Shown piece by piece: positions 285-15,680 of a stretch of DNA of 64,000 nucleotides. The DNA lies in assembly GCF_016903815.1 (NCBI RefSeq), contig NZ_CP069973.1, one strand, 5' to 3'. Both the position numbers and the translations under genes were made by a program. Positions within the stretch are counted from its first letter, which is position 1; each line of letters begins with the position of its first letter. Source of the stretch: Escherichia coli. GTDB taxonomy: Bacteria; Pseudomonadota; Gammaproteobacteria; Enterobacterales; Enterobacteriaceae. The notes under the pieces are model-generated. The model saw nothing but the letters and a program-made list of their open reading frames with translations, did no database searches and was not told where the DNA came from.

Positions 285-990
285 ATATCCTCCGGCATAG
301 CCGGAGGTTTTTCAAATGCGCCTATAAGGCTCTCTTACCAGCCGCGCCCTAACAGGCGCACACGATCTGACATTTGCATCCAACTTCGTTACTTACGGCC
401 CGTAAACGGGCTGCCCGGATAGGGAATCGATAACTGCTCTCCCATTTTATCCTCTTCAAGCTGGTGCTTTATGTAATCCTGTATCTTCGCCGTGTTCTTA
501 CCCACTGTATCGACGTAGTACCCTCTGCACCAGAACTCCCTGTTCCTGTATTTGAATTTCAAATCACCAAACTGCTCGTAAAGCATCAGACTGCTTTTCC
601 CTTTCAGATATCCCATAAACCCGGATACGCTCATTTTGGGCGGGATCTCCACAAGCATATGGATATGATCTGCACAGCATTCAGCTTCCAGAATCCGTAC
701 GCTTTTCCACTCACACAGCTTTCTCAAAATACTGCCTATTGCTCTACGCTTCTCTCTGTAGAACACCTGTCTTCGGTATTTTGGCGCAAAAACTATGTGA
801 TATTTACAGTTCCATCGGGTGTGCGCTAAGCTCTTTTCGTTCCCCATTGGGACCCCCTTTTGATTTCTTGTTTGACACTTGCAGTTGCCAGACCGCAAGG
901 TGTTTTAACAAATCAAAAGGGGTTTTAATAACTGGCTCAAAGCTGAAAGCTTTCCGGAACCCCCAGCCTAGCTGGGGGTTTTCTGTGCAC
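285..990 (-). mobile_element. IS200-like insertion sequence (IS200/IS605 family) in the gnd-ugd intergenic region; boundaries approximate
   Basis: Carries a Y1-type transposase gene (389..847) flanked by perfect hairpins at 289..307 and 958..980; total size about 0.7 kb as expected for IS200. Ends inferred from hairpins, not from alignment. Confidence 0.6.
389..847 (-). CDS. tnpA: IS200-type transposase TnpA (Y1 HuH transposase)
   Basis: Translation MGNEKSLAHTRWNCKYHIVFAPKYRR...HIHMLVEIPPKMSVS...CRGYYVDTVGKN has the HuH motif and catalytic Tyr region of IS200 TnpA; start trimmed from ORF 389..898 to the Met giving about 152 aa. Confidence 0.85.
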   Translation of the reverse strand: MGNEKSLAHTRWNCKYHIVFAPKYRRQVFYREKRRAIGSILRKLCEWKSVRILEAECCADHIHMLVEIPPKMSVSGFMGYLKGKSSLMLYEQFGDLKFKYRNREFWCRGYYVDTVGKNTAKIQDYIKHQLEEDKMGEQLSIPYPGSPFTGRK

Positions 991-2547: not shown

Positions 2548-3567
2548 TTAATCATCTGAATATCCATTGGGGTTTTGCACTTGCCATTTCCAAGCATCTC
2601 GAATCATATCAGCTAAATCTTTTTTAGCTCTCCAATTTAATTCTTCATAAGCTTTTGAAGGATCTGACCAACATTCAGCGATGTCACCGGGACGCCTACC
2701 AACAAATATATGTGGTACAGCGACATTTGTTATTTGTTCAAAAGTTTTTATTAAGTCAAGAACCGAATAACCTTTTCCAGTACCTAAATTATAGATCTTA
2801 CAATTCTCCCCTTCATTCGATGCCTTTACCGCTGCAACATGTCCTTCGGCAAGATCCATAACATGAATATAATCACGCACACCAGTACCATCATGGGTAT
2901 TATAATCATTACCGAAAATATGAACCTCATTGAGTTTACCTATTGCGGTTTGGCAAATATATGGCATAAGATTATTAGGTTTTCCTCTTGGATCTTCCCC
3001 TAATAATCCTGATGTGTGAGCCCCAACAGGATTAAAATAACGCAAAATAGTACACCGAAATGAACTATTCGAATAACATATATCCGATAGAATTTTTTCT
3101 ATTATTAGTTTAGATGTACCATATGGATTAGTTGTATGTCCAACTTCATTTGACTCTTTTATAGGAATACTCTTTGGTGATCCATATACTGTAGCAGATG
3201 AACTAAAAATAAATCTCATTACATCATGTCGTAACATCTCTTCAAGCAATGCTAGAGTTCCGACGACATTATTATCATAATAACTTATAGGTGAACTAAT
3301 CGATTGATCTACTGATTTTAAACCGGCAAAATGTATAACAGCATCAATATTATAACTATTAAAGATTTGATTAAGTACTGTTCTATTTCTAATGTCACCT
3401 TCTATAAATGATGCCTTTCTTAAGCAAATATTGTTAATCCTTTTTAATACTGATAAATGCGAGTTAGATAAATTATCAATTATGATAACTTCGTAGCCAG
3501 CATCTAATAACGACACGACAGTATGAGAACCTATATACCCTAATCCACCAGTTACAAGCAATTTCAT
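2548..3567 (-). CDS. UDP-hexose 4-epimerase (GalE family), O-antigen cluster
   Basis: 339 aa; MKLLVTGGLGYIGSHTVVSLL Rossmann motif, YGxxK (YGTSK) catalytic motif, GalE-like throughout; AT-rich. Confidence 0.8.
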   Translation of the reverse strand: MKLLVTGGLGYIGSHTVVSLLDAGYEVIIIDNLSNSHLSVLKRINNICLRKASFIEGDIRNRTVLNQIFNSYNIDAVIHFAGLKSVDQSISSPISYYDNNVVGTLALLEEMLRHDVMRFIFSSSATVYGSPKSIPIKESNEVGHTTNPYGTSKLIIEKILSDICYSNSSFRCTILRYFNPVGAHTSGLLGEDPRGKPNNLMPYICQTAIGKLNEVHIFGNDYNTHDGTGVRDYIHVMDLAEGHVAAVKASNEGENCKIYNLGTGKGYSVLDLIKTFEQITNVAVPHIFVGRRPGDIAECWSDPSKAYEELNWRAKKDLADMIRDAWKWQVQNPNGYSDD

Positions 3568-3605: not shown

Positions 3606-4343
3606 TTAGACTCGTTTTAACAAGGCATGAAAAAAATAATAAATGATATATTTAATTGAATGTAAGAATGAAAGGCGACGGTTTTTTCTATAAATATTCC
3701 ACTGCCAGGCTATTGCCTTAATTTTATTTGAGGATAAAGAATGTTCATTTACACGATATTTAGCTAAACACTCTTGTATACAATAAGCTCTATTGGTCAC
3801 TGATATTATATCCAACCACATTATATAATCTTCATGTCCTTCATTTACTTGGTTAAATATACCCAGTTTTTCCCTATTATATATACCTGTCAGGTTACCA
3901 ATAAAATTACTTTTAAGCATCATATCATAAGTTATTATTTCTGGTGAAATTCGAGCATTAATATATTCTTTTTCATTTGAAAATGTTATAAAATTACTGC
4001 ATACCAAATCCCAACCGTCTTCTAATTTCTCCATCTGTAAAGAAAGTTTGTTTTTAATCCACATATCATCACTATCTATAAAGGCAACATAATTGCCTTT
4101 ACATATATTAAGTGCAATATTTCTTGATTCCGCGACGCCTTTGTTATTTCTGTTTTTAATTACTGTTATTCTTTCATCTTGAAATTTGCCAGCTAATTCG
4201 AATGTATTATCATGCGATGCATCATCGATAATATATAGATGCCAATCCTTAAAGTCTTGATCAATTACAGAGTTTACAGCTTGTTCTATTGTTGCAGACG
4301 CATTATAAGCAGGCATTATTATCGAAACAGTTTCTCTTACCAT
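3606..4343 (-). CDS. Glycosyltransferase, family 2-like (O-antigen)
   Basis: 245 aa; N-terminal IIMPAYNASATIEQAVNSV...YIIDDASHDNT and a DSDD motif typical of GT-A fold GT2 enzymes. Confidence 0.7.
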   Translation of the reverse strand: MVRETVSIIMPAYNASATIEQAVNSVIDQDFKDWHLYIIDDASHDNTFELAGKFQDERITVIKNRNNKGVAESRNIALNICKGNYVAFIDSDDMWIKNKLSLQMEKLEDGWDLVCSNFITFSNEKEYINARISPEIITYDMMLKSNFIGNLTGIYNREKLGIFNQVNEGHEDYIMWLDIISVTNRAYCIQECLAKYRVNEHSLSSNKIKAIAWQWNIYRKNRRLSFLHSIKYIIYYFFHALLKRV

Positions 4344-4346
4344 ATT

Positions 4347-5399
4347 TTATATTCCAAGTAGTGATATCCATTTATGAATAATTGCATCAGCATTGTATTT
4401 CCTTGAATTTTTAATAGCATTAGTACTAAAAATGTTTGATAAATTATCATCAGAAGTCAATTTTCTTAACTTCTGTATAAAAAGCTCTCTGTTTTTAAAA
4501 GGGATAAGAAAACCATTAACATTATCAGTAATAATTTCTGCCGGGCCAGTTGGACAATCATATGCAACACTCGGGATTCCAAAACTCTGGGACTCAATCA
4601 ACACCATAGGTAATCCTTCATATAACGAAGTCATCGCATATATTTTGGCAGCATTATAGTAATTGCAAATTTCATCTGTTGTTTTAAACATTTTGATAGA
4701 TGACATTCCAGCTATGGCTTTTTCAAGAATCCTTTTATTAGGGCCATCACCAATGATATATAACGTCCAATTAGGTATATTTGCCTCATGCCAAATTTCA
4801 ATCAACTCATTAAAATTCTTTTGCTCTGTAAATCGTCCAACAGCGATCACAATATTTTCCCGTTGGTCATATGGTTTTATTATGTTATTGGATGTATCAA
4901 ATGGATTAATATTTGGTATTTGAATAACGTTTTTAATACCATATTTTGTAGTTAATAAATTATAATCATGCGAAGTTAAAACAATTACTTTTTTTGCTAT
5001 GTAATATGAAAATATTTTTATTAGCTGTATTGCTTTTTTAAAACTATTTAAGCCTACATGCTCATGGAAATATATATCATGCAGCCTGATAGCTTTCGCT
5101 AATATTCCACACTCCAGCGATAAGCGTCCCATCGACTCAACAATAACTTTATGTTTATTCTTCTTACAAAAAATCAAATAGGACAATAGAGAATAATAGC
5201 GCCATCCATTTCCATATTTAACAGAGATTTTATTTGATAAGAAATAGAAAGGATTGGCATGTTTTTTTTGTAATGAGAAAATTTCGACCTCAGCATTTTC
5301 TATATTACTTGATAATATATTTGATAATAATGCTGTAACTCTTTCTGTACCGCCCTTATTAGTAATATCAGAAATAATGAAACTAATTTTATTTTTCAT
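4347..5399 (-). CDS. Glycosyltransferase, GT-B fold (GT4-like) (O-antigen)
   Basis: 350 aa; C-terminal TSLYEGLPMVLIESQSFGIPSVAYDCPTGPAEII resembles the EX7E donor-binding region of GT4 enzymes. Confidence 0.65.
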   Translation of the reverse strand: MKNKISFIISDITNKGGTERVTALLSNILSSNIENAEVEIFSLQKKHANPFYFLSNKISVKYGNGWRYYSLLSYLIFCKKNKHKVIVESMGRLSLECGILAKAIRLHDIYFHEHVGLNSFKKAIQLIKIFSYYIAKKVIVLTSHDYNLLTTKYGIKNVIQIPNINPFDTSNNIIKPYDQRENIVIAVGRFTEQKNFNELIEIWHEANIPNWTLYIIGDGPNKRILEKAIAGMSSIKMFKTTDEICNYYNAAKIYAMTSLYEGLPMVLIESQSFGIPSVAYDCPTGPAEIITDNVNGFLIPFKNRELFIQKLRKLTSDDNLSNIFSTNAIKNSRKYNADAIIHKWISLLGI

Positions 5400-6328
5400 T
5401 TTTTGTTTCTCATAATATTACGAACTATTAGTCTTCTATACAGATATTGCATATTATAAATTGATAACAATACTGTAAGAAATATAAAGAAAAATCTTCT
5501 ATACATTGATTTTTGTTGCACTGCTAAAGCTAAACAACGACTAGAGGTAGAATGGAGTTTCTCGATAAGAATAGAGGAACTTAGCTTTTTATGCATACTC
5601 AAAACATCAAAATTATCTCTCCCTCTTCTAATTCTAAGTTTATGGAGTTTTAACACGTAATTATGCGCTTTTCTTTGAAGTAAACTAGCAACACTTGCAC
5701 TATTGCCCTGTCGATGTCTAATGTACATTAGATACTCAGGGTGATTATCACATTTATAACCCCGATCCAAAGCTCTTAATATAAAATCATAATCTTCAGC
5801 ATAAGGTATTTCCCTATAACCTTGTAACTCATCATATACCTCCCTCTTAGCTAACCAAATGTGAGCAATTGGAGAGACATATTTAGACACCTTTTTAACT
5901 ATATCTTCTCCAACAGGTGAGATACTTTTTGTCAAATGCTCACCTATCTCATTAATTGAGTGCATTTGACATCCAACAATATCTAAATCATTCGCCTCGA
6001 GATAATGCAATTGTTTTTCAATTCTATCAGGTGCTGCGATATCATCCCCGTCAAATCGCGCAATATATTGCCCTTTAGCTAACAATAACCCCTGATTTAA
6101 CGATTTTACAATTTTCTGATTTTCCTTATTATATATTATTTTAATCCTACTATCTGTACGCGCTAGATTTTGTATTTTCTCCCGCGTATTATCAGTTGAA
6201 TAATCATCAATTATTATTATTTCTATTTTTTTATAAGTTTGTTCAATAATACTATTTATGGCTTCATCAATCCATGCTCCGACATTATACGTCGGAATTA
6301 ATATTGAAATTAATGGTTCATTTTTCAT
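5396..6328 (-). CDS. Glycosyltransferase, family 2-like (O-antigen)
   Basis: 310 aa; ISILIPTYNVGAWIDEAINSIIEQTYKKIEIIIIDDYSTDNT GT2 signature; 4-nt overlap with the downstream gene. Confidence 0.7.
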   Translation of the reverse strand: MKNEPLISILIPTYNVGAWIDEAINSIIEQTYKKIEIIIIDDYSTDNTREKIQNLARTDSRIKIIYNKENQKIVKSLNQGLLLAKGQYIARFDGDDIAAPDRIEKQLHYLEANDLDIVGCQMHSINEIGEHLTKSISPVGEDIVKKVSKYVSPIAHIWLAKREVYDELQGYREIPYAEDYDFILRALDRGYKCDNHPEYLMYIRHRQGNSASVASLLQRKAHNYVLKLHKLRIRRGRDNFDVLSMHKKLSSSILIEKLHSTSSRCLALAVQQKSMYRRFFFIFLTVLLSIYNMQYLYRRLIVRNIMRNKK

Positions 6329-7455
6329 AACTTTTGATTACCTAAATATCTGGTTTCGTTATAAATAACAGCATTCAATATAAATAAAAATGGTGAATAT
6401 GCACCAAATAGCGAAATACCACTGATACATACTGGCAACCAAATATACAATGAATTAAAATTTGTCTTTTTAAGGCTATAAAAAATAAAAGTTATAAAAA
6501 GAAAAGACCCAATAAAACCAAATTCTAAAACTAAAGTTACATATATGTTATGTGCAAAAATCCCTAGTAATTGTTCTGTGTTTCCAAGCCCAACACCAAA
6601 CATATGTGTCATAAGTGATTGCGTAGTGTAAAATTCAAATGCTTGGCTAATAATGTAGAATTTAGAATTAAAACTCCCATCAATATTTGAATAATTGCTA
6701 TTTTCAAATAAGTAGCTTATTGACATGTAAATAAATACACATATGACAAATAAAAAAACAAGTGCTGAACGCTTTCCTATCTTTGCCTTATTATTCAGAA
6801 CATATAACATAGCAAGCAGCGTTACCATTGCAGCTCTTGACATTGTTAAAAATAGCAGAATATATGTTATGTACCTTGTATATTTGAAGTTATAGATTTT
6901 ATTATTTTTAAGAAACAATAAAAAACCTAAGATGGAAATATCTATTAATGCTGTAAAATTTGAATCAAAGTAGAATAAACTTTTTTTGAATGCATATAAA
7001 ATACCTTCTGATAGATTACCTATAATGACTCTAGTAATCAACTCCAGAAACATGAACATTACAAAAAACATCAAAAAATTTTTATAACATTTAATTCGTG
7101 TATCATAGTTTAGCACCATAAATACTTCATTTACTCCAACGCTAATAACCATCGAGTAAAAAAACAGGAAGGGTGTGATGTAATTTGGAGCTTCAGGATA
7201 CCCTGTTGTTTGGGTTTTATAATAGATACCTATAACCTGACACAGAAGAATTGCGAAAGCAAAAATAATAGTTACCATGCTAAACTTTGAAATTTTTGCC
7301 TTAACAAATATTAGCATTATTATAATACTTAACAACCCTGCACCATATATATAAGCAGGATTAATAGCAAGAGAATTTATGCTCAAAAATGCACAACATA
7401 AAAATGCCGTAAGATACTTACCGGATCTTTGTTTGTTAATTTGATTTTCGTTCAT
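6325..7455 (-). CDS. wzy: O-antigen polymerase
   Basis: 376 aa, very hydrophobic with many predicted TM segments and a large loop, in the canonical wzy position of a Wzx/Wzy cluster; low sequence conservation is expected for Wzy. Confidence 0.65.
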   Translation of the reverse strand: MNENQINKQRSGKYLTAFLCCAFLSINSLAINPAYIYGAGLLSIIIMLIFVKAKISKFSMVTIIFAFAILLCQVIGIYYKTQTTGYPEAPNYITPFLFFYSMVISVGVNEVFMVLNYDTRIKCYKNFLMFFVMFMFLELITRVIIGNLSEGILYAFKKSLFYFDSNFTALIDISILGFLLFLKNNKIYNFKYTRYITYILLFLTMSRAAMVTLLAMLYVLNNKAKIGKRSALVFLFVICVFIYMSISYLFENSNYSNIDGSFNSKFYIISQAFEFYTTQSLMTHMFGVGLGNTEQLLGIFAHNIYVTLVLEFGFIGSFLFITFIFYSLKKTNFNSLYIWLPVCISGISLFGAYSPFLFILNAVIYNETRYLGNQKL

Positions 7456-8464
7456 TCAAATTACTCGAATATGGTGACTGTAGAATTTCATTAATAAGAT
7501 GATTAATATCATACTTTCTAAGTATATTTTGCTCTATAATTACATTATTTTTTTTTAAAAATGATTTTAACGCATCGATATTACAATCCTGCTCCTTATA
7601 TATGAATATATTATCTGCATTATAAAAATCATATTCGGTAATACTTTCGTTATTTGTTATTAACTTTTTATTATAGAATAGGGCTTCCAATGTTCTAATT
7701 GTCAGACCTCCTTGTCCCGGTTGAACAATTTCAAGAATAGCTGTTGTTTGAAATAATTTATCAAGATACTCGTCATAATTCATTGCATTTTTTGCTAATA
7801 GTCTCTCACATTCATCATAATGCTTATTTTTATCAGGCAAAACACTAATTGAAAAGCTCAAGGAAGCATCGTCTAATAACTTTGCAAAGGTATTTAAAAG
7901 TTCAAGCCGCCCTTTATCTACCCCAATAAAGAAAATATCGAACATTACAGGATTGGTTAATTCCTCACACAGTTTTTTATTTAATACTTGACGACTAAAT
8001 TCCAATGAGTAAACTTGGGGATGATAATTTAGTTTATATTTAACCGAGTCATTATAATCAAACGTCCAAACTTGAACCCCAGTAATTTTTAATGTGATTA
8101 ATAGAATCTTAAACTCTATTTCTGAGATGTTCAATGTTCGTCTAGGATTCCATAACCAAATGGCTTGATTGGCACAAAACGAAAACTTATATACGCAAGA
8201 AGATATTCCTTTATAATCCTCTATACCAAAATAAATTGCATGATCATTTTTTGAGTGAATTTTCCTTTTTATATACGCAATGACAATCAAAAATAATGGT
8301 TTTATCCTTGATTTATACAAATTGACAAGAATATTTTTAGTTGCGCAAATATTTGTGATTTCAGTTAAATTATAAAAATATATTTTTTCCGAAGATAACT
8401 TTGAAAAAATAATCTCCGTTAAAAAATAATCATTTTTGACCAAATGTGTTATTTTTTTTACCAT
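7436..8464 (-). CDS. Putative glycosyltransferase, WecF (Fuc4NAc transferase, GT56)-like
   Basis: 342 aa; weak similarity by eye to WecF (KYKLNYHP versus RYKLFYPL; C-terminal GGLTIRTLEALFYNKKLITN). Assignment tentative. Confidence 0.4.
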   Translation of the reverse strand: MVKKITHLVKNDYFLTEIIFSKLSSEKIYFYNLTEITNICATKNILVNLYKSRIKPLFLIVIAYIKRKIHSKNDHAIYFGIEDYKGISSCVYKFSFCANQAIWLWNPRRTLNISEIEFKILLITLKITGVQVWTFDYNDSVKYKLNYHPQVYSLEFSRQVLNKKLCEELTNPVMFDIFFIGVDKGRLELLNTFAKLLDDASLSFSISVLPDKNKHYDECERLLAKNAMNYDEYLDKLFQTTAILEIVQPGQGGLTIRTLEALFYNKKLITNNESITEYDFYNADNIFIYKEQDCNIDALKSFLKKNNVIIEQNILRKYDINHLINEILQSPYSSNLNERKSN

Positions 8465-9708
8465 GATTTATATATGCCCCGAGATGCTACAAGTAAAATA
8501 ACGAAATCTAAACTGACTCTAATTGTCCACGCATATGCAGCCCCTATTACACCAAAATGTATAATAAAGAAATACAATCCAACAAGGTAAGGAATTATTT
8601 CAATGCAATGTATTAATGCCGTGATTTTCGCTTTACCTGCAGCCTGGATTGTAGCAAATGGAATCTGAGCATATGAATTAAATAAAAATCCTATCAGAAG
8701 AACTTGCAAAATATAAGTTGAATTTTCAGCATATTCTTTACCTAACCATATATTTAGGATTGTATACGATAATCCCACTCCAATAATTACAGCAGGTATG
8801 CAAACCATGCTGAGCATAATATAGGCTATTGTTTCATTTTTTTTTCTTTCCGAAAGTGTCTTTGCAGCACTTAATTTTGGAAATAATGCTCTTGCCAAAG
8901 CCCAGGGAATATTAATCAATCTATTAATAAATTCTGAAGGCGCTATATAAAACCCAACGCTTTTTGCCCCCAGAAGATTAGATAATATAAACCGATCAAA
9001 ATAACTCATGACCGGACTAATAATATTACTTACAGTAATCCAGCCACCAAACTTTAACAGTCGAAACAAAACTTGCTTATGAAATCTAATACCCGCTGTT
9101 AATACTATTTCTTTTGCACAATAATATGAAATAATTAACGAAACCATTCGACCACAAACTAATCCAATCATTGCACATGTCAGGGTTGGATGTAGAATGA
9201 TGAAAAAAGCTGGAAGCCCCGCTACTAATGAACTACTAATACATCGTTGAATATTTATATTAAAAAAATCTTCCATGCCCTCCAAATATGATACAAATAT
9301 CTGATTTAGCAAAAATAAAGGTATAGTTATAGTCAGTATCTTAAACGAAGATACAACATCATCCTTATATCTAGGGCTAACCTTTAACAAAGACACTAGG
9401 TTATCAATGTTCATAAACAAAAGAGCTGCACCAACTAAACCCAGTATAATTATAGCAAAATTAGATGTTGCAATAATTTTATTTAATTCAGATTTATTAG
9501 TTCTATTAAACGCAATTTCTCTAATAACAGCTCTTGTTAATCCTGCGTCAAAAATACTGGCATAACCAACAATAGCTGTACAAAGAGCAAACAAGCCAAA
9601 CCTTTCTGCTCCCAATTCACGAGCTATATATCCTAATGCAGGCAAAGCGACAATGGTTGGAATAATGTATCCACCAAAGTTCCATATACTATTTTTTAAT
9701 AAACTCAT
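8458..9708 (-). CDS. wzx: O-antigen flippase
   Basis: 416 aa polytopic membrane protein with a polysaccharide-biosynthesis (MOP) type N-terminus, directly downstream of rmlC. Confidence 0.7.
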   Translation of the reverse strand: MSLLKNSIWNFGGYIIPTIVALPALGYIARELGAERFGLFALCTAIVGYASIFDAGLTRAVIREIAFNRTNKSELNKIIATSNFAIIILGLVGAALLFMNIDNLVSLLKVSPRYKDDVVSSFKILTITIPLFLLNQIFVSYLEGMEDFFNINIQRCISSSLVAGLPAFFIILHPTLTCAMIGLVCGRMVSLIISYYCAKEIVLTAGIRFHKQVLFRLLKFGGWITVSNIISPVMSYFDRFILSNLLGAKSVGFYIAPSEFINRLINIPWALARALFPKLSAAKTLSERKKNETIAYIMLSMVCIPAVIIGVGLSYTILNIWLGKEYAENSTYILQVLLIGFLFNSYAQIPFATIQAAGKAKITALIHCIEIIPYLVGLYFFIIHFGVIGAAYAWTIRVSLDFVILLVASRGIYKSW

Positions 9709-9714
9709 ATTTTC

Positions 9715-10263
9715 CTAAAAATAATCAATTTTGTTAATGTGAGATGCACATTTATCTTTAGTGGAAAGGATAACATTTATATTCAATTCGGGCCAATCAA
9801 TGTCAATTGTATTATCATTCCAAATAATATTTCTTTCATTTTCTTTATTGTAATAATTATTCGTCTTATATAAAACCTCAGCAGTGTTAGATAATACTAA
9901 AAATCCATGAGCAAACCCTTCTGGAATCCATAATTGATGCTTATTCTCAGCAGATAAGTTCACCCCAACCCATTTTCCAAAGGTAGGCGAAGATTTACGA
10001 ATATCAACCGCAACATCAAAAACTTCACCGACCATACAGCGCACCAGTTTTGCTTGAGCATAGGGTTCTAACTGGTAATGAAGACCACGTAAAACACCTT
10101 TACTTGACTTCGAATGGTTATCCTGAACAAACTTAACTTTACGGCCTACCGCTTCTTCGAAAACCTTCTGGTTAAAGCTCTCAAAAAAGAAACCGCGCTC
10201 GTCGCTAAAAACTTTTGGTTCAAAAATCAGTACATCTGGAATTTCTGTTTTAATTACGTTCAT
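9715..10263 (-). CDS. rmlC: dTDP-4-dehydrorhamnose 3,5-epimerase
   Basis: 182 aa; MNVIKTEIPDVLIFEPKVFSDERGFF...VQDNHSKS...GVLRGLHYQ is RmlC/RfbC. Confidence 0.9.
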   Translation of the reverse strand: MNVIKTEIPDVLIFEPKVFSDERGFFFESFNQKVFEEAVGRKVKFVQDNHSKSSKGVLRGLHYQLEPYAQAKLVRCMVGEVFDVAVDIRKSSPTFGKWVGVNLSAENKHQLWIPEGFAHGFLVLSNTAEVLYKTNNYYNKENERNIIWNDNTIDIDWPELNINVILSTKDKCASHINKIDYF

Positions 10264-10267
10264 TTTA

Positions 10268-11146
10268 TTAATAACCTTTAATCATTTTGAGCAGATACTG
10301 ACCATAAGCATTTTTTTTCAGCGGTTCAGCTAATACTTTCACCTGCTCAGCATCAATAAACCCTTTACGGTAAGCAATTTCTTCCGGGCAGGAAACTTTC
10401 AACCCCTGACGCTCTTCAATTGTAGCAATGAAGTTGCTTGCTTCAATAAGACTTTGATGTGTCCCCGTGTCCAGCCATGCATAACCACGCCCCATCATGG
10501 CAACGGATAAACGCCCCTGTTCCATATAAATACGGTTAATATCGGTAATTTCCAGTTCACCACGGGCAGAAGGCTGAAGGTTTTTCGCCATTTCCACAAC
10601 GTCGTTATCATAGAAATAAAGCCCGGTTACCGCATAATTACTTTTTGGTTGTAGCGGTTTTTCTTCAAGGCTAATTGCCGTACCGTTTTTATCAAACTCA
10701 ACGACACCATAGCGTTCAGGATCATTAACGTGATAGGCAAATACCGTTGCACCACTCTCTTTGTTAACAGCGGCATCCATTAACTTCGGCAGGTCGTGAC
10801 CGTAGAAGATATTATCACCAAGTACCAAAGCACAATCATCACCACCGATAAACTCTTCACCGATGATAAATGCCTGCGCAAGACCATCCGGACTCAGTTG
10901 CACTTTGTACTGAAGATTCAGGCCCCACTGGCTCCCGTCACCCAGCAGTTGTTGAAAACGAGGAGTATCCTGTGGCGTACTGATAATCAAAATATCGCGA
11001 ATACCCGCCAACATCAGTGTAGAGAGCGGGTAATAGATCATCGGTTTATCATAAATAGGTAATAGCTGTTTACTGACAGCCATAGTCACAGGATAAAGAC
11101 GAGTACCAGAACCGCCCGCTAAAATAATACCTTTACGCGTTTTCAT
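10268..11146 (-). CDS. rmlA: Glucose-1-phosphate thymidylyltransferase
   Basis: 292 aa; [21 protein letters not shown] nucleotidyltransferase motif, RmlA/RfbA. Confidence 0.9.
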
Positions 11147-11203
11147 TTCATCATTCCTTTTAATTCATCTTGCTCCACCATCACGAACAAGATGCAAAAA
11201 CTA

Positions 11204-12103
11204 TTAAATAGCTGTAGTCGTAAATAATTCGTTGAGCATGCGTTTCACGCCAATCTGCCAGTCAGGCAAGACAAGCGCAAAGTTCTGCTGAAATTTTTCT
11301 GTATCAAGGCGAGAGTTATGCGGACGACGAGCTGGTGTAGGATAGGCTGTTGTTGGTACTGCGTTGAGCTTGTTGAGAGCAAGGGCAATGCCTGCTTTGC
11401 GCGCCTCTTCAAAAACGAGCGCAGCATAATCGTGCCAGGTTGTGGTACCACTGGCTACCAAATGGTACAAGCCTGCGACTTCCGGTTTATTCAGTGCTAC
11501 ACGAATGGCATGTGCCGTACAATCAGCCAGCAACTCTGCGCCAGTTGGCGCACCAAACTGATCATTAATAACGGCTAATTCTTCACGCTCTTTTGCCAGA
11601 CGTAACATTGTCTTGGCAAAATTGTTTCCTTTACCTGCATATACCCAGCTGGTCCGGAAAATAAGATGCTTCGCGCAATGTTCCTGTAACGCTTTTTCTC
11701 CGGCTAACTTGGTTTCACCGTAAACATTTAGCGGTGCGGTTGCATCCGTCTCCAGCCATGGCGTGTCGCCATTTCCAGGGAATACGTAGTCAGTTGAGTA
11801 ATGAATTACCCAAGCCCCAACTTCATTAGCCGCTTTTGCAATCGCTTCAACACTTGTCGCATTGAGTAATTGTGCAAATTCGGGTTCTGACTCAGCCTTA
11901 TCTACCGCGGTATGAGCAGCAGCATTAACAATAACGTCAGGACGAATTTTTTTGACGGTTTCAGCCACACCTTCTGGGTTACTAAAATCACCACAATAAT
12001 CAGTAGAGTGAACATCAAGAGCAATCAAATTACCCAAAGGTGCCAGCGCACGCTGTAGTTCCCAACCTACCTGCCCTGTTTTGCCGAAAAGGAGGATATT
12101 CAT
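11204..12103 (-). CDS. rmlD: dTDP-4-dehydrorhamnose reductase
   Basis: 299 aa; [24 protein letters not shown] is RmlD/RfbD. Confidence 0.9.
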   Translation of the reverse strand: MNILLFGKTGQVGWELQRALAPLGNLIALDVHSTDYCGDFSNPEGVAETVKKIRPDVIVNAAAHTAVDKAESEPEFAQLLNATSVEAIAKAANEVGAWVIHYSTDYVFPGNGDTPWLETDATAPLNVYGETKLAGEKALQEHCAKHLIFRTSWVYAGKGNNFAKTMLRLAKEREELAVINDQFGAPTGAELLADCTAHAIRVALNKPEVAGLYHLVASGTTTWHDYAALVFEEARKAGIALALNKLNAVPTTAYPTPARRPHNSRLDTEKFQQNFALVLPDWQIGVKRMLNELFTTTAI

Positions 12104-13188
12104 TACTGGCGGCCCTCATAGTTCTGTTCAATCCACGATTGATAGGCACCACTTTTCACATTATCAACCCATTTTGTATTGGACAGGTACCATTCCACTG
12201 TCTTCCGAATCCCGCTCTCAAACGTTTCCTGTGGTTTCCAACCCAATTCGCGGCTAATCTTCTCAGCATCAATCGCATAACGGCGATCATGTCCCGGGCG
12301 GTCGGCAACATAAGTAATTTGCTCACGATAAGATTTCTCTTTCGGTACAATCTCATCCAACAAATCACAAATAGTGAGCACTACATCGATGTTTTTCTTT
12401 TCGTTGTGTCCACCAATGTTATAAGTTTCACCCGCTTTACCTTCGGTTACGACGGTATATAACGCACGCGCATGATCTTCAACATACAGCCAGTCACGAA
12501 TTTGATCCCCTTTGCCATAAATAGGTAATGCCTTACCTTCCAGAGCATTAAGAATTACTAGTGGAATCAATTTTTCCGGAAAGTGATAAGGACCGTAGTT
12601 ATTCGAACAGTTAGTCACAATGGTCGGTAAACCATAGGTACGTTTCCACGCGCGGACTAAATGATCGCTGGATGCTTTTGATGCGGAATAAGGGCTGCTT
12701 GGCGCGTAAGCTGTCGTCTCAGTAAATAAGGGTAATTCTTCGTTATTATTTACTTCATCTGGATGAGGCAAATCACCATAGACTTCGTCAGTAGAAATAT
12801 GATGAAAACGGAAGCTATTTTTCTTGTCGCTATCAAGAGCAGACCAGTAATTGCGAGCGGCTTCCAAAAGGACATAAGTACCAACAATATTGGTTTCAAT
12901 AAATGCCGCAGGACCTGTAATTGAACGGTCAACATGGCTTTCAGCAGCCAGGTGCATCACTGCATCCGGCTGATGCTGAGCAAAAATCCGTGCCATTGCA
13001 GCAGCATCGCAAATATCCGCATGTTCAAAAATATAGCGTTCAGAATCAGAAACATCAGCAAGTGATTCCAGGTTTCCGGCGTACGTTAATTTATCGACAT
13101 TAACAACACTATCCTGCGTATTATTTATAATGTGACGAACTACAGCAGAACCAATAAATCCTGCGCCACCAGTAACAAGTATCTTCAC
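12103..13188 (-). CDS. rmlB: dTDP-glucose 4,6-dehydratase
   Basis: 361 aa; [21 protein letters not shown]...YxxxK SDR motif, RmlB/RfbB. Confidence 0.9.
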
Positions 13189-13263
13189 TCTTTTATTCCA
13201 TATTACTTCAGAGCATGCAGTGAAATAAGCGGCTCTTAGTTTGATTAATAGAGGTATTAATGC

Positions 13264-13275
13264 ACGCTACCGCCC
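13264..13275 (-). promoter_or_regulatory. ops element (GGCGGTAGCGTG) within a JUMPstart sequence upstream of the rml/O-antigen operon
   Basis: Exact 12-mer CACGCTACCGCC on the plus strand, which is GGCGGTAGCGTG in the direction of rmlB transcription, in the galF-rmlB intergenic region. Confidence 0.75.
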
Positions 13276-13559
13276 CTGGCTTTACTGCTACCAGTGCACT
13301 GCATGCATGTCTACGATGTGACGAGCGTTACCCACTCGCGCTTAGCTCGAAAAATTCAAACGCTAATTGTCTTACCAATCCGCTCTGGAAACAAGGAAAA
13401 TCCTGGAAAACTTTGACTAAAATCCTATTGCTAACTCGTTGTTATTCTGATTGTTTATATAAAACAACGGCAGGAATATTCGCAGCAAATTACTTTCGCC
13501 ACGAATCTTCACTGCCGTTATAATTTTCTTATCAACCGTTACATTCGGTCAGATTTTCA

Positions 13560-14453
13560 TTATTCGCTTAACAGCTTCTCAATACCTTTACGGAACTTCG
13601 CCCCTTCTTTCAGGTTGCGCAGTCCATACTTCACAAACGCCTGCATATAACCCATTTTTTTACCGCAGTCGTAGCTGTCACCTGTCATCAGCATGGCATC
13701 AACGGACTGTTTTTTCGCCAATTCAGCAATGGCATCAGTCAGTTGAATACGTCCCCATGCACCAGGCTGAGTGCGTTCAAGTTCCGGCCAAATATCGACA
13801 GAAAGCACATAGCGACCAACGGCCATGATGTCTGAGTCCAGTGTTTGCGGCTGATCCGGTTTTTCGATGAATTCAACAATGCGGCTGACTTTACCTTCGC
13901 AATCCAGCGGTTCTTTGGTCTGAATAACAGAGTATTCAGAGAGGTCACCCGGCATACGTTTTGCCAGCACCTGGCTACGACCCGTTTCGTTGAAACGTGC
14001 AATCATGGCAGCAAGGTTGTAGCGCAGCGGGTCGGCGCTGGCGTCGTCGATCACAACGTCTGGCAGCACCACGACAAATGGATTGTCACCAATGGCGGGT
14101 CGTGCACACAAAATGGAGTGACCTAAACCTAAAGGTTCGCCCTGACGCACGTTCATAATTGTCACGCCCGGCGGGCAAATGGACTGTACTTCCGCCAGCA
14201 GTTGGCGCTTCACGCGCTGCTCAAGGAGAGATTCTAATTCATAAGAGGTGTCGAAGTGGTTTTCGACCGCGTTCTTGGACGCGTGAGTCACCAGGAGGAT
14301 TTCTTTGATCCCTGCAGCCACAATCTCGTCAACAATGTACTGAATCATTGGCTTGTCGACGATCGGTAGCATCTCTTTGGGTATCGCCTTAGTGGCAGGC
14401 AACATATGCATCCCAAGACCCGCTACCGGTATAACTGCTTTTAAATTCGTCAT
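13560..14453 (-). CDS. galF: UTP-glucose-1-phosphate uridylyltransferase paralog GalF
   Basis: 297 aa; [43 protein letters not shown] is GalF/GalU family, in the conserved position upstream of the O-antigen cluster. Confidence 0.9.
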
Positions 14454-14684
14454 TATTTTCCTACCTCTAAGTGGCTGATAGTGCGTAAATTATTGTCATA
14501 GGTTAGCCAAACGGTATGGCTATATACCAAGCATAACTTTGATTAAACCTTACGATAACACTACACACCATCAGCATCTGGGTTACTCGGATTACTCGGA
14601 AATCCACATACTGATAATTTAATCAGTACCTCATTCCGAATAATCGTAGTCCAACCTGGTCCTTTTTTCTCTGACTCGTCTGCA

Positions 14685-15680
14685 TTACTCAGAAACAAAC
14701 GTTATGTCGTCTTTTTTGGCATGGACGAATTCATACTGCAGAGTTCGATCCAGACCTTGCGACAGCGTATACGGTGCCACAAAACCTGAAGAATGCACTT
14801 TCGTTGCGTCAAACTGTGTTGTTGCGCAGAATTTTTTCACGCGCACAGAGCTGACAGCGTATTTTTTGCCCGTAATTTTGCTCAGGATATCAAAGCAATA
14901 TCCACCCAGCATTCCTAGTGGGTAAGGCAAGTGCATAGAAGGGATCTTTTTGTTCAGGCTTTGTTCAACTTCAGCAACCAACTGGTTCATGTTCAGGTCT
15001 GGCTTATCAACATAGTTATAAACCTCATAACCTGCGGCAACATTCTTCAGTTTGTACTTGATAAACTCAACAATGTTTCCAACATAAGCCATGGACTTAT
15101 AGTTAGTCCCTGCGCCCACCATCATAAACTTGCCGCCAGCGATCTGTTTCAGCAAGTTATAGACGTTACCGCGGTTGCGTTCACCGAAGATAACGGTAGG
15201 ACGGATGATAGTTAATGAACGTTCTGTTGGTGCTTTGTTATACCATTCACGTAGCACTTCCTCTGCCTGCCACTTACTTTTGCCGTAGTGGTTGAAAGGA
15301 TCGTGTGGATGGTTTTCGTCAGGGTTGTGTTTGTTCAAACCATAAATAGCAACGGAACTGGTAAAGATGATATTTTTAACGCCATTTTTTTCCATGGCCG
15401 CCAGCACATTGCGGGTACCCTGAACGTTGACATCATAATAGAGAGAAGTAGGGCTGACGTCATCGCGGTGTTCCGCTGCCAGTAGTACAACAGTGTCAAA
15501 ACCGGCTAACGCCTGGTCGAGTGCCTGTTGATCACGAACATCGCCAATCTGTGTGATTTCTGGATAAAAGTGGCTCTGCTGTTTGTCCAGGTTCTTGATA
15601 TTAAAGTCAGCAATTGCCGTTTCAAGTAGTCGGGTTCCTACGAATCCGGAAGCTCCTATGAGCAAAACGTTATCGTTCAT
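14685..15680 (-). CDS. gne: NAD-dependent sugar epimerase, Gne/Z3206-like
   Basis: 331 aa; MNDNVLLIGASGFVGTRLLE Rossmann motif, YGKSK catalytic motif; located between galF and wcaM, where gne sits in some E. coli serogroups (absent in K-12). Confidence 0.7.
   Translation of the reverse strand: MNDNVLLIGASGFVGTRLLETAIADFNIKNLDKQQSHFYPEITQIGDVRDQQALDQALAGFDTVVLLAAEHRDDVSPTSLYYDVNVQGTRNVLAAMEKNGVKNIIFTSSVAIYGLNKHNPDENHPHDPFNHYGKSKWQAEEVLREWYNKAPTERSLTIIRPTVIFGERNRGNVYNLLKQIAGGKFMMVGAGTNYKSMAYVGNIVEFIKYKLKNVAAGYEVYNYVDKPDLNMNQLVAEVEQSLNKKIPSMHLPYPLGMLGGYCFDILSKITGKKYAVSSVRVKKFCATTQFDATKVHSSGFVAPYTLSQGLDRTLQYEFVHAKKDDITFVSE

What the first reader, a model, noticed from the sequence alone, without database searches (positions are those of the whole stretch)
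7436..8464. Poorly assignable 342-aa protein between wzx and wzy with only faint WecF-like similarity
Unlike the three neighbouring transferases it lacks a DXD/GT2 or EX7E/GT4 signature. By eye it resembles the WecF (GT56, Fuc4NAc transferase) family in a few segments only. GT56-like enzymes are uncommon in O-antigen clusters, and it may determine an unusual sugar or linkage. Its call is the least certain in the cluster.
Basis: inference. Interest (0 to 1): 0.4.

Follow-up and report, generated by a model that had tools for sequence, protein, structure and literature searches.

The report
WaaS-family glycosyltransferase in O102 O-antigen cluster
The unassigned 342-aa gene between wzx and wzy of the E. 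coli O102 O-antigen cluster is a real, conserved sugar-adding enzyme of the WaaS/CpsH family, unrelated to WecF beyond a shared fold, so the finding is ordinary.

Summary
The ORF is real: window 7436-8464 on the minus strand, 342 aa, overlapping the end of wzx and the start of wzy. The window is the E. coli O102 O-antigen cluster.

Pfam and PDB sequence searches find nothing. NCBIfam places it full-length in NF053598, "WaaS/CpsH family glycosyltransferase" (162 bits, cutoff 60). The newest RefSeq annotations already carry that name.

The WecF/GT56 idea fails every sequence and profile test: no Pfam match, BLASTP E 3.9, hhalign 2%. The same profile matches GT4 enzymes at 85%. The only common ground with WecF is the GT-B fold.

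It is most likely the fourth glycosyltransferase needed for an inferred five-sugar O102 unit. The donor is not settled. L-rhamnose is my best guess, based on the WaaS precedent and rmlBDAC in the cluster. Family members elsewhere sit beside rml genes in only about a third of loci, and some sit beside glf.

Verdict: ordinary and already catalogued. The biochemical activity is untested.

The parts
7436..8464 (-). Target ORF, 342 aa: WaaS/CpsH-family GT-B glycosyltransferase. RefSeq WP_029701684.1 is labelled 'hypothetical protein' in older annotations and 'WaaS/CpsH family glycosyltransferase' in the newest.
   Evidence: ORF. NCBIfam NF053598 at 162 bits, cutoff 60. Homology to K-12 WaaS. AF2 model pLDDT 90.4. 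GT-B fold. RefSeq labels. GC 27.3%, like neighbouring wzy/GT genes.
7955..8464 (-). N-terminal Rossmann-like domain (residues ~1-170), the presumed acceptor-binding half.
   Evidence: Alternating strand/helix order in the AF2 model. Coordinates checked by translation.
8048..8062 (-). FDYND motif (F135 D136 ... D139), just after an N-domain strand. D136 is the candidate catalytic base.
   Evidence: F135 and D136 are kept in 56/58 family members, D139 in 51/58. The role is inferred, not shown.
7535..7942 (-). C-terminal Rossmann-like domain (residues ~175-310), the presumed nucleotide-sugar-binding half.
   Evidence: AF2 secondary structure. hhalign aligns it with the GT4 donor-binding domain. 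22/58 members weakly hit Pfam Glyco_trans_1_2.
7907..7924 (-). GVDKGR loop after the first C-domain strand. hhalign places it opposite the GT4 'GR...KG' phosphate-binding loop.
   Evidence: R186 in 56/58, G181 in 51/58, K184 in 45/58. Alignment to GT4.
7649..7723 (-). Family signature QPGQGGLTIRTLEALFYNKKLITNN (residues 248-272). It occupies the position of the GT4 EX7E region but reads Q-x8-E.
   Evidence: R257, K266, K267, I269 and T270 are invariant in 58/58. G253 is kept in 57/58, E260 in 56/58 and Q251 in 55/58. Aligned with the GT4 'S..EG.P..L.EA..G.PV' block.
7442..7531 (-). C-terminal helices (residues ~312-341). I interpret them as packing back on the N-domain, as is typical of GT-B; the tail 339-342 is disordered.
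   Evidence: AF2 model; the packing itself was not inspected.
8458..9708 (-). wzx, O102 flippase; its stop overlaps the target's ATG.
   Evidence: Pfam Polysacc_synt. RefSeq 'O102 family O-antigen flippase'. Sequence.
6325..7455 (-). wzy, O102 polymerase; its start overlaps the target's last 20 nt.
   Evidence: Weak Pfam Wzy_C hit. RefSeq 'O102 family O-antigen polymerase'. Sequence.
5396..6328 (-). GT2 glycosyltransferase (310 aa).
   Evidence: Pfam PF00535, E=2.9e-38.
4347..5399 (-). GT4 glycosyltransferase (350 aa).
   Evidence: Pfam PF00534, E=2.5e-32. Best NCBIfam similarity is to PglH, below its cutoff.
3606..4343 (-). GT2 glycosyltransferase (245 aa).
   Evidence: Pfam PF00535, E=2e-32.
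2548..3567 (-). Low-GC galE/gne-type UDP-hexose 4-epimerase at the 3' end of the cluster.
   Evidence: NCBIfam galE at 452 bits. GC 33.6%.
9715..13188 (-). rmlC, rmlA, rmlD, rmlB: the dTDP-L-rhamnose pathway, and the only dedicated sugar pathway in the cluster.
   Evidence: ORFs and translations. RmlC Pfam hit. RefSeq names rfbC/A/D/B.

Best explanation
The ORF encodes a soluble or peripheral cytoplasmic glycosyltransferase with the GT-B fold, belonging to the WaaS/CpsH family. It is the fourth glycosyltransferase of the O102 cluster. It acts at the inner face of the membrane on the growing undecaprenyl-diphosphate-linked O-unit, before Wzx flips the unit and Wzy polymerises it.

Proposed chemistry (inferred, not shown):
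- The C-terminal domain binds the nucleotide sugar. The GVDKGR loop and the invariant R257, K266 and K267 hold the diphosphate. E260 sits at the position of the second Glu of the GT4 EX7E region.
- The N-terminal domain binds the acceptor. The near-invariant D136 of FDxxD serves as the general base of an inverting transfer.
- The donor I consider most likely is dTDP-beta-L-rhamnose, giving an alpha-L-Rha linkage, as reported for WaaS in the K-12 core.

Confidence by step: glycosyltransferase of this family and fold, about 0.9. Fourth GT of a five-sugar unit, about 0.75. Rhamnose as donor, about 0.45. The figure given below is for the whole statement including the donor.
For: Family membership:
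- NF053598 matches full-length, E=2.9e-47, 162 bits against a cutoff of 60. K-12 WaaS hits the same model at 179 bits.
- BLASTP against WaaS gives 30% identity over 152 aa, E=7e-20.
- The newest RefSeq records use this family name for the identical gene.

Fold:
- The AF2 model has pLDDT 90.4 and pTM 0.87, with two Rossmann-like domains.
- Every Foldseek hit with E<=0.001 is a GT-B-fold enzyme; seven are glycosyltransferases and one is UDP-GlcNAc 2-epimerase. The best is BshA, E=2.8e-5.
- hhalign against a GT4 alignment gives 84.7%, E=6.7e-6.
- 22/58 members weakly hit Pfam Glyco_trans_1_2 and 6/58 hit GumK_N, the N-domain of an inverting GT-B enzyme.

Fourth-GT argument:
- The cluster has only three canonical GTs.
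- The Liu et al. review (PMC7685785) gives O102 a two-residue side branch.
- It reports two-residue backbones for only seven serogroups, and O102 is not one of them.
- It expects GT number = residues minus 1, and it does not list O102 among the GT-number anomalies.
- This implies at least five sugars and four GTs.

Donor:
- WaaS is described as the rhamnosyltransferase of the K-12 core (PMC6358824; PMC6286764; PMC4651636).
- rmlBDAC is the only dedicated sugar pathway here.
- rml genes lie within 10 kb of family members in 16 of 51 non-core loci, often within 0-3 kb. This is more often than glf (5 loci) or the GDP-Fuc genes gmd/fcl (none clearly matched among these 51).
- Three of the four closest relatives' loci that I examined (L004, L062 and L007, but not L064) carry rml.

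Other: no TM segment, pI 8.5. Gene overlaps with wzx and wzy.
Against: - No biochemical or genetic data exist for this protein.
- The published O102 structure (Perepelov 2012) could not be read. The five-sugar/four-GT argument is therefore indirect, and the number of Rha residues is unknown to me.
- Either GT2 enzyme could be the rhamnosyltransferase instead; GT2 enzymes of the WbbL type commonly do this job (own knowledge).
- About two thirds of family loci show no rml genes within 10 kb. In two loci (L005, L026) glf is directly adjacent, and L064 carries fnl/gmd/fcl genes instead. The family is therefore probably not mono-specific.
- No baseline frequency of rml genes in polysaccharide loci was computed.
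- Catalytic roles of D136, R257, K266 and E260 are inferred from conservation and alignment position only.
- The WaaS assignment itself is known to me only from reviews citing a study I could not read.
Confidence: 0.45

Rival explanations
1. Same family, fold and role (fourth O-unit glycosyltransferase), but the donor is not rhamnose. It would transfer a UDP-sugar such as Gal, GalNAc, GlcNAc or Glc, and one of the GT2 enzymes would be the rhamnosyltransferase.
For: - Family members occur next to glf (L005, L026), or with fnlABC/gmd/fcl and no visible rml (L064). About two thirds of loci lack rml within 10 kb.
- The cluster carries its own galE/gne epimerase, so a UDP-Gal or UDP-GalNAc donor is available.
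- A 'CpsH' gives the family half its name. S. suis Cps2H is a proven beta-1,4-galactosyltransferase (PMC13126196), although I could not test whether it belongs to this family.
Against: - The only family member for which I found a reported function, WaaS, is tied to rhamnose.
- Of the sugar pathways I surveyed, rml is the commonest neighbour.
- Neither GT2 reaches the cutoff of any NCBIfam model, so neither has an assigned donor.
Confidence: 0.4
2. A GT56/WecF-like transferase of a 4-acetamido-4,6-dideoxyhexose or a similar unusual sugar.
For: - Same gene order as wzxE-wecF-wzyE in the ECA cluster.
- Both proteins appear to be GT-B and hit the same solved structures.
- The one hhalign segment (32 columns) falls in the topologically equivalent C-domain region.
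Against: - BLASTP E=3.9.
- No PF07429 hit for any of 58 family members.
- HMM cross-searches are empty.
- hhalign gives 2%, against 84.7% for GT4.
- The cluster has no aminotransferase or N-acetyltransferase genes for a Fuc4NAc-type sugar.
- Caveat: the WecF profile was shallow (Neff 1.7) and detected GT4 only at 11.6%.
Confidence: 0.02
3. A GT-B-fold enzyme that is not a glycosyltransferase, for example a pyruvyl-, glycerophospho- or other substituent transferase, or a nucleotide-sugar epimerase, that modifies the O-unit.
For: - The conserved Arg and Lys residues would suit any phosphate-bearing donor.
Against: - The family's named member is linked to addition of a sugar.
- Without this protein the cluster would be one GT short for an O-unit of at least five sugars.
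Confidence: 0.06
4. A spurious or decaying ORF with no function.
For: - Labelled 'hypothetical protein' in most records.
- Very AT-rich, 27% GC.
Against: - Intact and >=99% identical in 103 of the 105 complete genomes that carry it.
- Conserved at 49% identity in a syntenic sister cluster.
- Full-length family membership with invariant motifs.
- Confident fold prediction.
- GC matches the neighbouring wzy and GT genes.
Confidence: 0.01

Closest known systems
E. coli K-12 WaaS (RfaS, b3629), the core-LPS rhamnosyltransferase
   Same: - Same NCBIfam family, NF053598: 162 and 179 bits.
- 30% identity over the C-terminal domain, E=7e-20.
- Same size class (311 vs 342 aa) and shared motifs GxDKGR and QxGQxG(L/W)TxRxLEALFxNKKLITNN.
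- Neither has a Pfam domain.
- Rhamnose is available in both genetic backgrounds.
   Different: - WaaS is encoded in the waa core cluster and is reported to act on Kdo of the lipid A-core. The target is in an O-antigen cluster and should act on an Und-PP-linked oligosaccharide.
- The N-terminal (acceptor) domains are too diverged for BLASTP to align.
- The target's donor is unproven.
GT4-type retaining GT-B glycosyltransferases (neighbouring O102 GT4, WaaG, BshA, PimA, WlaC/PglH)
   Same: - Profile homology of 84.7% over 211 columns.
- The phosphate loop and the helix carrying the 'EA' Glu sit in equivalent positions.
   Different: - No Pfam Glycos_transf_1 hit at all, and only about 9% identity to solved structures.
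- The EX7E string is replaced by Q-x8-E, followed by an invariant NKKLIT strand.
- A near-invariant N-domain Asp (FDxxD) and weak GumK_N hits suggest an inverting rather than a retaining mechanism. This is inference.
WecF (GT56, TDP-Fuc4NAc:lipid II Fuc4NAc transferase)
   Same: - Similar length, and placed between a flippase and a polymerase gene.
- Both hit the same GT-B structures, though the WecF model is only pLDDT 67.
- Both would use dTDP-sugars if the rhamnose guess is right.
   Different: - No detectable sequence or profile relationship.
- Different conserved motifs: WecF has FARQQGIGT, the target has QPGQGGLTIR...NKKLITNN.
- No Fuc4NAc pathway in the O102 cluster.
WbbL-type GT2 rhamnosyltransferases of O-antigen clusters (functional analogue)
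   Same: Would perform the same kind of reaction (dTDP-L-Rha to an Und-PP-linked acceptor) in the same pathway. This rests on my own knowledge of the family. K-12 wbbL is annotated as a rhamnosyltransferase.
   Different: Unrelated fold: GT-A with a DXD motif and metal dependence, against GT-B with no DXD.

Membership tests
WaaS/CpsH family glycosyltransferase (NCBIfam NF053598) | Whole-protein score above the curated cutoff, with end-to-end coverage of the family HMM | tested here: met
   162 bits against a cutoff of 60, E=2.9e-47. Residues 11-328 match profile positions 8-317 of 318.
WaaS/CpsH family glycosyltransferase (NCBIfam NF053598) | Direct homology to the founding member, E. coli K-12 WaaS | tested here: met
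   BLASTP 30% identity over 152 aa, E=7e-20. WaaS itself scores 179 bits on the model and 226 bits on my family HMM.
WaaS/CpsH family glycosyltransferase (NCBIfam NF053598) | Family-conserved residues present (FDxxD; GxDKGR; QxGxxTxRxxE...KKLIT) | tested here: met
   All are present in the target. R257, K266, K267, I269 and T270 are invariant in 58/58. D136, R186 and E260 are kept in 56/58.
WaaS/CpsH family glycosyltransferase (NCBIfam NF053598) | Glycosyl (rhamnosyl) transfer activity | not testable with these tools
   Only literature statements on WaaS were available. The primary paper is not held.
GT-B fold glycosyltransferase superfamily | Two Rossmann-like domains, matching solved GT-B enzymes over both domains | tested here: met
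   [not shown]
GT4 (Pfam Glycos_transf_1, PF00534) | Match to PF00534/PF13692 and an EX7E motif | tested here: not met
   No Pfam hit at E<=10. No ExxxxxxxE string; the equivalent region reads Q251-x8-E260. Only remote profile homology.
GT56 (WecF, Pfam Glyco_transf_56, PF07429) | Match to PF07429, or sequence/profile similarity to WecF | tested here: not met
   No PF07429 hit for the target or any of 58 relatives, whereas WecF scores 629 bits. BLASTP E=3.9. HMM cross-searches are empty. hhalign gives 2%. The WecF profile was shallow.
GT56 (WecF, Pfam Glyco_transf_56, PF07429) | Genetic association with a dTDP-Fuc4NAc pathway (aminotransferase plus acetyltransferase, as wecE/rffC) | tested here: not met
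   The O102 cluster between galF and gnd holds only rmlBDAC, wzx, wzy, four GT candidates and galE/gne.
GT2 (Pfam Glycos_transf_2, PF00535) | GT-A fold with a DXD motif and a match to PF00535 | tested here: not met
   No Pfam hit, no DxD string, and a GT-B rather than GT-A fold.

The most novel reading that the evidence does not exclude
WaaS/CpsH proteins form a very large GT-B family that no one has characterised structurally or biochemically. It has at least 7,156 clusters at 50% identity, no Pfam model and no solved relative, and almost all members are labelled 'hypothetical'. It may be a distinct family of inverting transferases specialised for 6-deoxyhexoses such as L-rhamnose, separate from the known GT1, GT2 and GT4 rhamnosyltransferases. 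The O102 enzyme sits in a compact, genetically tractable cluster of a clinically common serogroup, so it would be a good model for defining the family's chemistry.
Probability: 0.3. Interest if true: 0.45.

Novelty: already known. Interest (0 to 1): 0.2.

Why it matters
It matters mainly for bookkeeping. The gene can now be read as the fourth glycosyltransferase of the O102 unit rather than as a 'hypothetical protein' or a GT56 oddity.

O102 is a recurring human-associated serogroup: 105 of 5,426 complete E. coli genomes carry this gene. Knowing which enzyme makes which linkage is useful for glycoengineering and for conjugate-vaccine work.

More broadly, the WaaS/CpsH family is large and has no Pfam model, no solved structure and no in vitro characterisation that I could find. 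A biochemical study of any member would annotate thousands of genes. None of this would surprise a specialist.

Tried and rejected
1. Plus-strand reading of 7436-8464 is full of stops; the gene is on the minus strand.
2. Pfam and PDB sequence searches with the single protein found nothing. A PDB search with the family profile gave only noise, E>=0.04.
3. The WecF hypothesis was rejected after BLASTP, Pfam on 58 members, HMM cross-searches and hhalign.
4. No solved WecF structure exists. The WecF AF2 model from a shallow alignment was poor (pLDDT 67). It still hit only generic GT-B enzymes, so it supports nothing beyond a shared fold.
5. The afdb50 fold library was unavailable.
6. The O102 structure paper (PMID 22982615) and Klein 2011 (PMC3234843) are not held. 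Text searches for the O102 repeat unit found only the Liu review. DebRoy 2016 supplements gave only the accession JX087966.
7. I looked for named or characterised homologues. Both word-index searches and the cluster look-ups returned only 'hypothetical protein'. The exact 342-aa sequence is not indexed.
8. 'CpsH' literature: GBS CpsH and Klebsiella 'cpsH...' strings are irrelevant. Family membership of S. suis Cps2H could not be tested because no sequence was available.
9. The search for related loci with the full alignment failed for lack of a conserved stretch. It succeeded with a motif-restricted sub-alignment, which biases the sample toward NKKLITNN-bearing members.
10. WbbI (the Galf transferase), WaaZ, WbbK, RffM and WcaK, together with the unassigned 321-aa ORF in L062 and the 424-aa ORF in L064 (probably wzy), are not family members.
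11. NCBIfam on the three neighbouring GTs gave no hit reaching a model's cutoff, so it could not fix which one transfers rhamnose.
Full report
**1. What is at the coordinates**

Window 7436-8464 read on the plus strand is full of stops. On the minus strand it is one ORF of 342 aa with an ATG start. Its ATG lies inside the last codons of the upstream gene (...TC**ATG**G**TAA**, a 7-nt overlap). Its last 20 nt overlap the start of the downstream gene. GC content is 27.3%, like its neighbours (wzy 28.0%, GT4 29.4%) and unlike gnd at 50%.

All genes in the region are on the minus strand. In transcription order (descending window coordinates) they are:

| Gene | Window coordinates |
|---|---|
| galF | 13560-14453 |
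| rmlB, rmlD, rmlA, rmlC | 9715-13188 |
| wzx | 8458-9708 |
| target | 7436-8464 |
| wzy | 6325-7455 |
| GT2 | 5396-6328 |
| GT4 | 4347-5399 |
| GT2 | 3606-4343 |
| galE/gne-type epimerase | 2548-3567 |
| gnd | 1047-2453 |

These assignments rest.

Megablast finds the target in 105 of 5,426 complete E. coli genomes. It is always chromosomal and single-copy, and 103 copies are >=99% identical. The flanking genes are annotated 'O102 family' flippase and polymerase. The window is therefore the E. coli O102 O-antigen cluster; the reference sequence is JX087966.

**2. Family assignment**

- Pfam finds nothing at E<=10. PDB sequence search finds nothing.
- NCBIfam release 20 matches it end to end to NF053598, 'WaaS/CpsH family glycosyltransferase': E=2.9e-47, 162 bits against a cutoff of 60, residues 11-328 on profile positions 8-317 of 318.
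- K-12 WaaS hits the same model at 179 bits and also has no Pfam domain.
- The two proteins align directly over the C-terminal half: 30% identity over 152 aa, E=7e-20.
- Older RefSeq records call the gene 'hypothetical protein'. At least two of the newest (NZ_CM192137.1, NZ_CM149886.1) already call the identical gene 'WaaS/CpsH family glycosyltransferase'.
- A profile of 58 homologues finds 7,156 representatives of 50%-identity clusters at E<=0.001, 4,618 of them at E<=1e-30. The 150 listed are single-domain proteins of about 300 aa.
- Every homologue in my searches that carries a name is 'hypothetical protein', and none has a Pfam domain.

**3. Fold**

AlphaFold2 on the 58-sequence alignment gives a confident model (mean pLDDT 90.4, pTM 0.87). 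It has two beta/alpha/beta domains, roughly residues 1-170 and 175-310, followed by C-terminal helices.

- Every Foldseek hit against the PDB with E<=0.001 is a GT-B-fold enzyme. Seven are glycosyltransferases and one is UDP-GlcNAc 2-epimerase. The best is BshA 3mbo, E=2.8e-5, TM about 0.52.
- At sequence level, 22 of 58 members weakly hit Pfam Glyco_trans_1_2 (best 3.4e-5) and 6 hit GumK_N.
- hhalign of the family against a 14-sequence GT4 alignment gives 84.7% probability, E=6.7e-6, over 211 columns covering target residues 71-305.

That alignment puts GVDKGR (181-186) opposite the GT4 'GR...KG' loop. It puts QPGQGGLTIRTLEALFYNKKLITNN (248-272) opposite the GT4 'S..EG.P..L.EA..G.PV' block. 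The strict EX7E string is absent, but its structural position is occupied by Q251-x8-E260.

Conservation within the family:

| Residue(s) | Kept in |
|---|---|
| R257, K266, K267, I269, T270 | 58/58 |
| G253 | 57/58 |
| F135, D136, R186, E260 | 56/58 |
| Q251 | 55/58 |
| D139 | 51/58 |

There is no transmembrane segment, and the pI is 8.5.

**4. The WecF/GT56 idea**

- BLASTP against K-12 WecF gives only fragments at E>=3.9.
- WecF scores 629 bits on PF07429. Neither the target nor any of its 57 aligned relatives registers on that model even at E<=1.
- A WecF HMM against 201 family members, and the family HMM against 120 WecF sequences, give nothing significant.
- hhalign gives 2% probability over 32 columns.
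- The cluster contains no aminotransferase or acetyltransferase for a Fuc4NAc-type sugar.

The WecF profile was shallow: all retrievable homologues were >=73% identical. As a calibration, the same profile detects GT4 at only 11.6%, although over 206 topologically sensible columns.

I conclude that the target and WecF share the GT-B fold and its generic C-domain motif region, and nothing more specific. The ECA cluster has the same local order, wzxE-wecF-wzyE, which makes the analogy tempting.

**5. Role in the O102 pathway**

The cluster has three canonical GTs. The Liu et al. review (PMC7685785) makes four relevant statements:
- O102 is one of the few E. coli O-units with a two-residue side branch.
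- Two-residue backbones occur in only seven serogroups, and O102 is not among them.
- The expected number of GT genes is the number of residues minus one.
- O102 is not in its lists of clusters with too few or too many GTs, nor among those needing a bifunctional rhamnosyltransferase.

Together these imply at least five sugars and four GTs, so the target is the fourth. This is an inference. The primary structure paper could not be read.

**6. Donor sugar**

For rhamnose:
- Reviews describe WaaS as the rhamnosyltransferase that adds L-Rha to Kdo in K-12 glycoforms IV, V and VII.
- rmlBDAC is the only dedicated sugar pathway in the cluster.
- A fully syntenic sister cluster (L004) keeps rmlBDAC-wzx-X-wzy-GT2-GT4-GT2. 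Identities are X 49%, wzx 67%, wzy 61% and the GTs 55-61%.
- The next closest relative (L062, 36% identity) sits in rmlC-wzx-glf-orf-X-GT4-wzy-GT2-GT4.

I surveyed 57 loci from diverse phyla. Six are waa core clusters.
- Of the other 51, 15 have rmlC and 16 have at least two rml genes within 10 kb, often 0-3 kb away. Among the 31 loci with at least 9 kb of sequence on both sides, the count is 12.
- glf occurs in 5, and is directly adjacent in L005 and L026.
- GDP-fucose genes were not clearly matched in any of the 51. They appear only in L064, a locus outside this sample, which carries fnlABC, a GT11 and gmd/fcl with no visible rml.

Of the sugar pathways I surveyed, rml is the commonest partner, but it is far from universal, and I have no baseline for polysaccharide loci in general. 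The family is probably multi-specific. For this protein I put rhamnose at about 0.45 and another donor at about 0.4.

A near-invariant N-domain Asp (FDxxD) and the weak GumK_N hits make an inverting mechanism more likely. That would fit dTDP-beta-L-Rha giving an alpha-L-Rha linkage. This is inference only.

**7. Comparison with known families and novelty**

The protein is a member of the WaaS/CpsH family; every defining feature I could test is met. It has the GT-B fold. It is not a member of GT4, GT2 or GT56 by their Pfam definitions. The sequence, the cluster and the family label are all already public, so I file it as already known. Its activity, like that of most O-antigen GTs, is untested.

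The only mildly interesting point is that the family is large and has no Pfam model, no solved structure and no in vitro enzymology that I could find.

**8. Limits**

- The afdb50 library was unavailable.
- The locus sample is biased to members carrying NKKLITNN.
- Model coordinates could not be inspected, so the active-site geometry is inferred from alignment and conservation.

Noticed in passing
L066 (NZ_CM153269.1, strain F5446); corresponds to window ~7391 onward: One O102-type genome has an IS1 element abutting a 5'-truncated wzy. It lacks the target gene, wzx, rmlBDAC, galF and the colanic acid genes as far as wcaF. This looks like a natural large deletion, and the strain should be rough.
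   Followed up: partly
L004 (Logan ERR11807123 contig, 5275-14864): A fully syntenic sister O-antigen cluster, rmlBDAC-wzx-X-wzy-GT2-GT4-GT2, with 49-67% protein identity to O102 but no galE/gne gene before gnd. The target homologue is the most diverged gene of the set at 49%. A Citrobacter sedlakii protein (P0003) is 48% identical to the target.
   Followed up: partly
window ~389-847 (minus strand); L003 1-412; L066 3890-4348: An IS200C-family tnpA gene lies just past gnd. In L066, which extends further, it sits between gnd and ugd. It is seen in the two O102 genomes examined.
   Followed up: no
L002 10279-13954 (K-12 ECA cluster): The ECA cluster has the order wzxE-wecF-wzyE, the same flippase-GT-polymerase arrangement as wzx-X-wzy here, although the two GTs are unrelated in sequence.
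   Followed up: yes
L005 2081-4174; L026 ~7545-9100: In two distant loci a family member lies within 100 bp of glf (UDP-galactopyranose mutase). This hints that some WaaS/CpsH proteins may be galactofuranosyltransferases rather than rhamnosyltransferases.
   Followed up: partly
L014, L015, L023, L027, L029, L033 (Rahnella spp.), L050 (Dryocola): Seven enterobacterial loci carry a family member outside any waa core cluster, with none of the sugar-pathway markers I screened within 10 kb. Their context was not characterised.
   Followed up: no
window 14685-15680 (minus strand): Upstream of galF lies a 331-aa gene that RefSeq annotates as GlcNAc-PP-undecaprenol 4-epimerase (Gnu-type). The initiating sugar of the O-unit could therefore be GalNAc.
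   Followed up: no
protein cluster of P0001: Most of the database copies listed for this protein are 'partial' fragments at contig ends. Draft E. coli assemblies seem to break often inside this 27%-GC gene.
   Followed up: no
L062 2820-3785: A 321-aa ORF with no Pfam domain lies between glf and the family member. It is not related to K-12 WbbI or to the WaaS family. It is another unassigned candidate transferase.
   Followed up: partly
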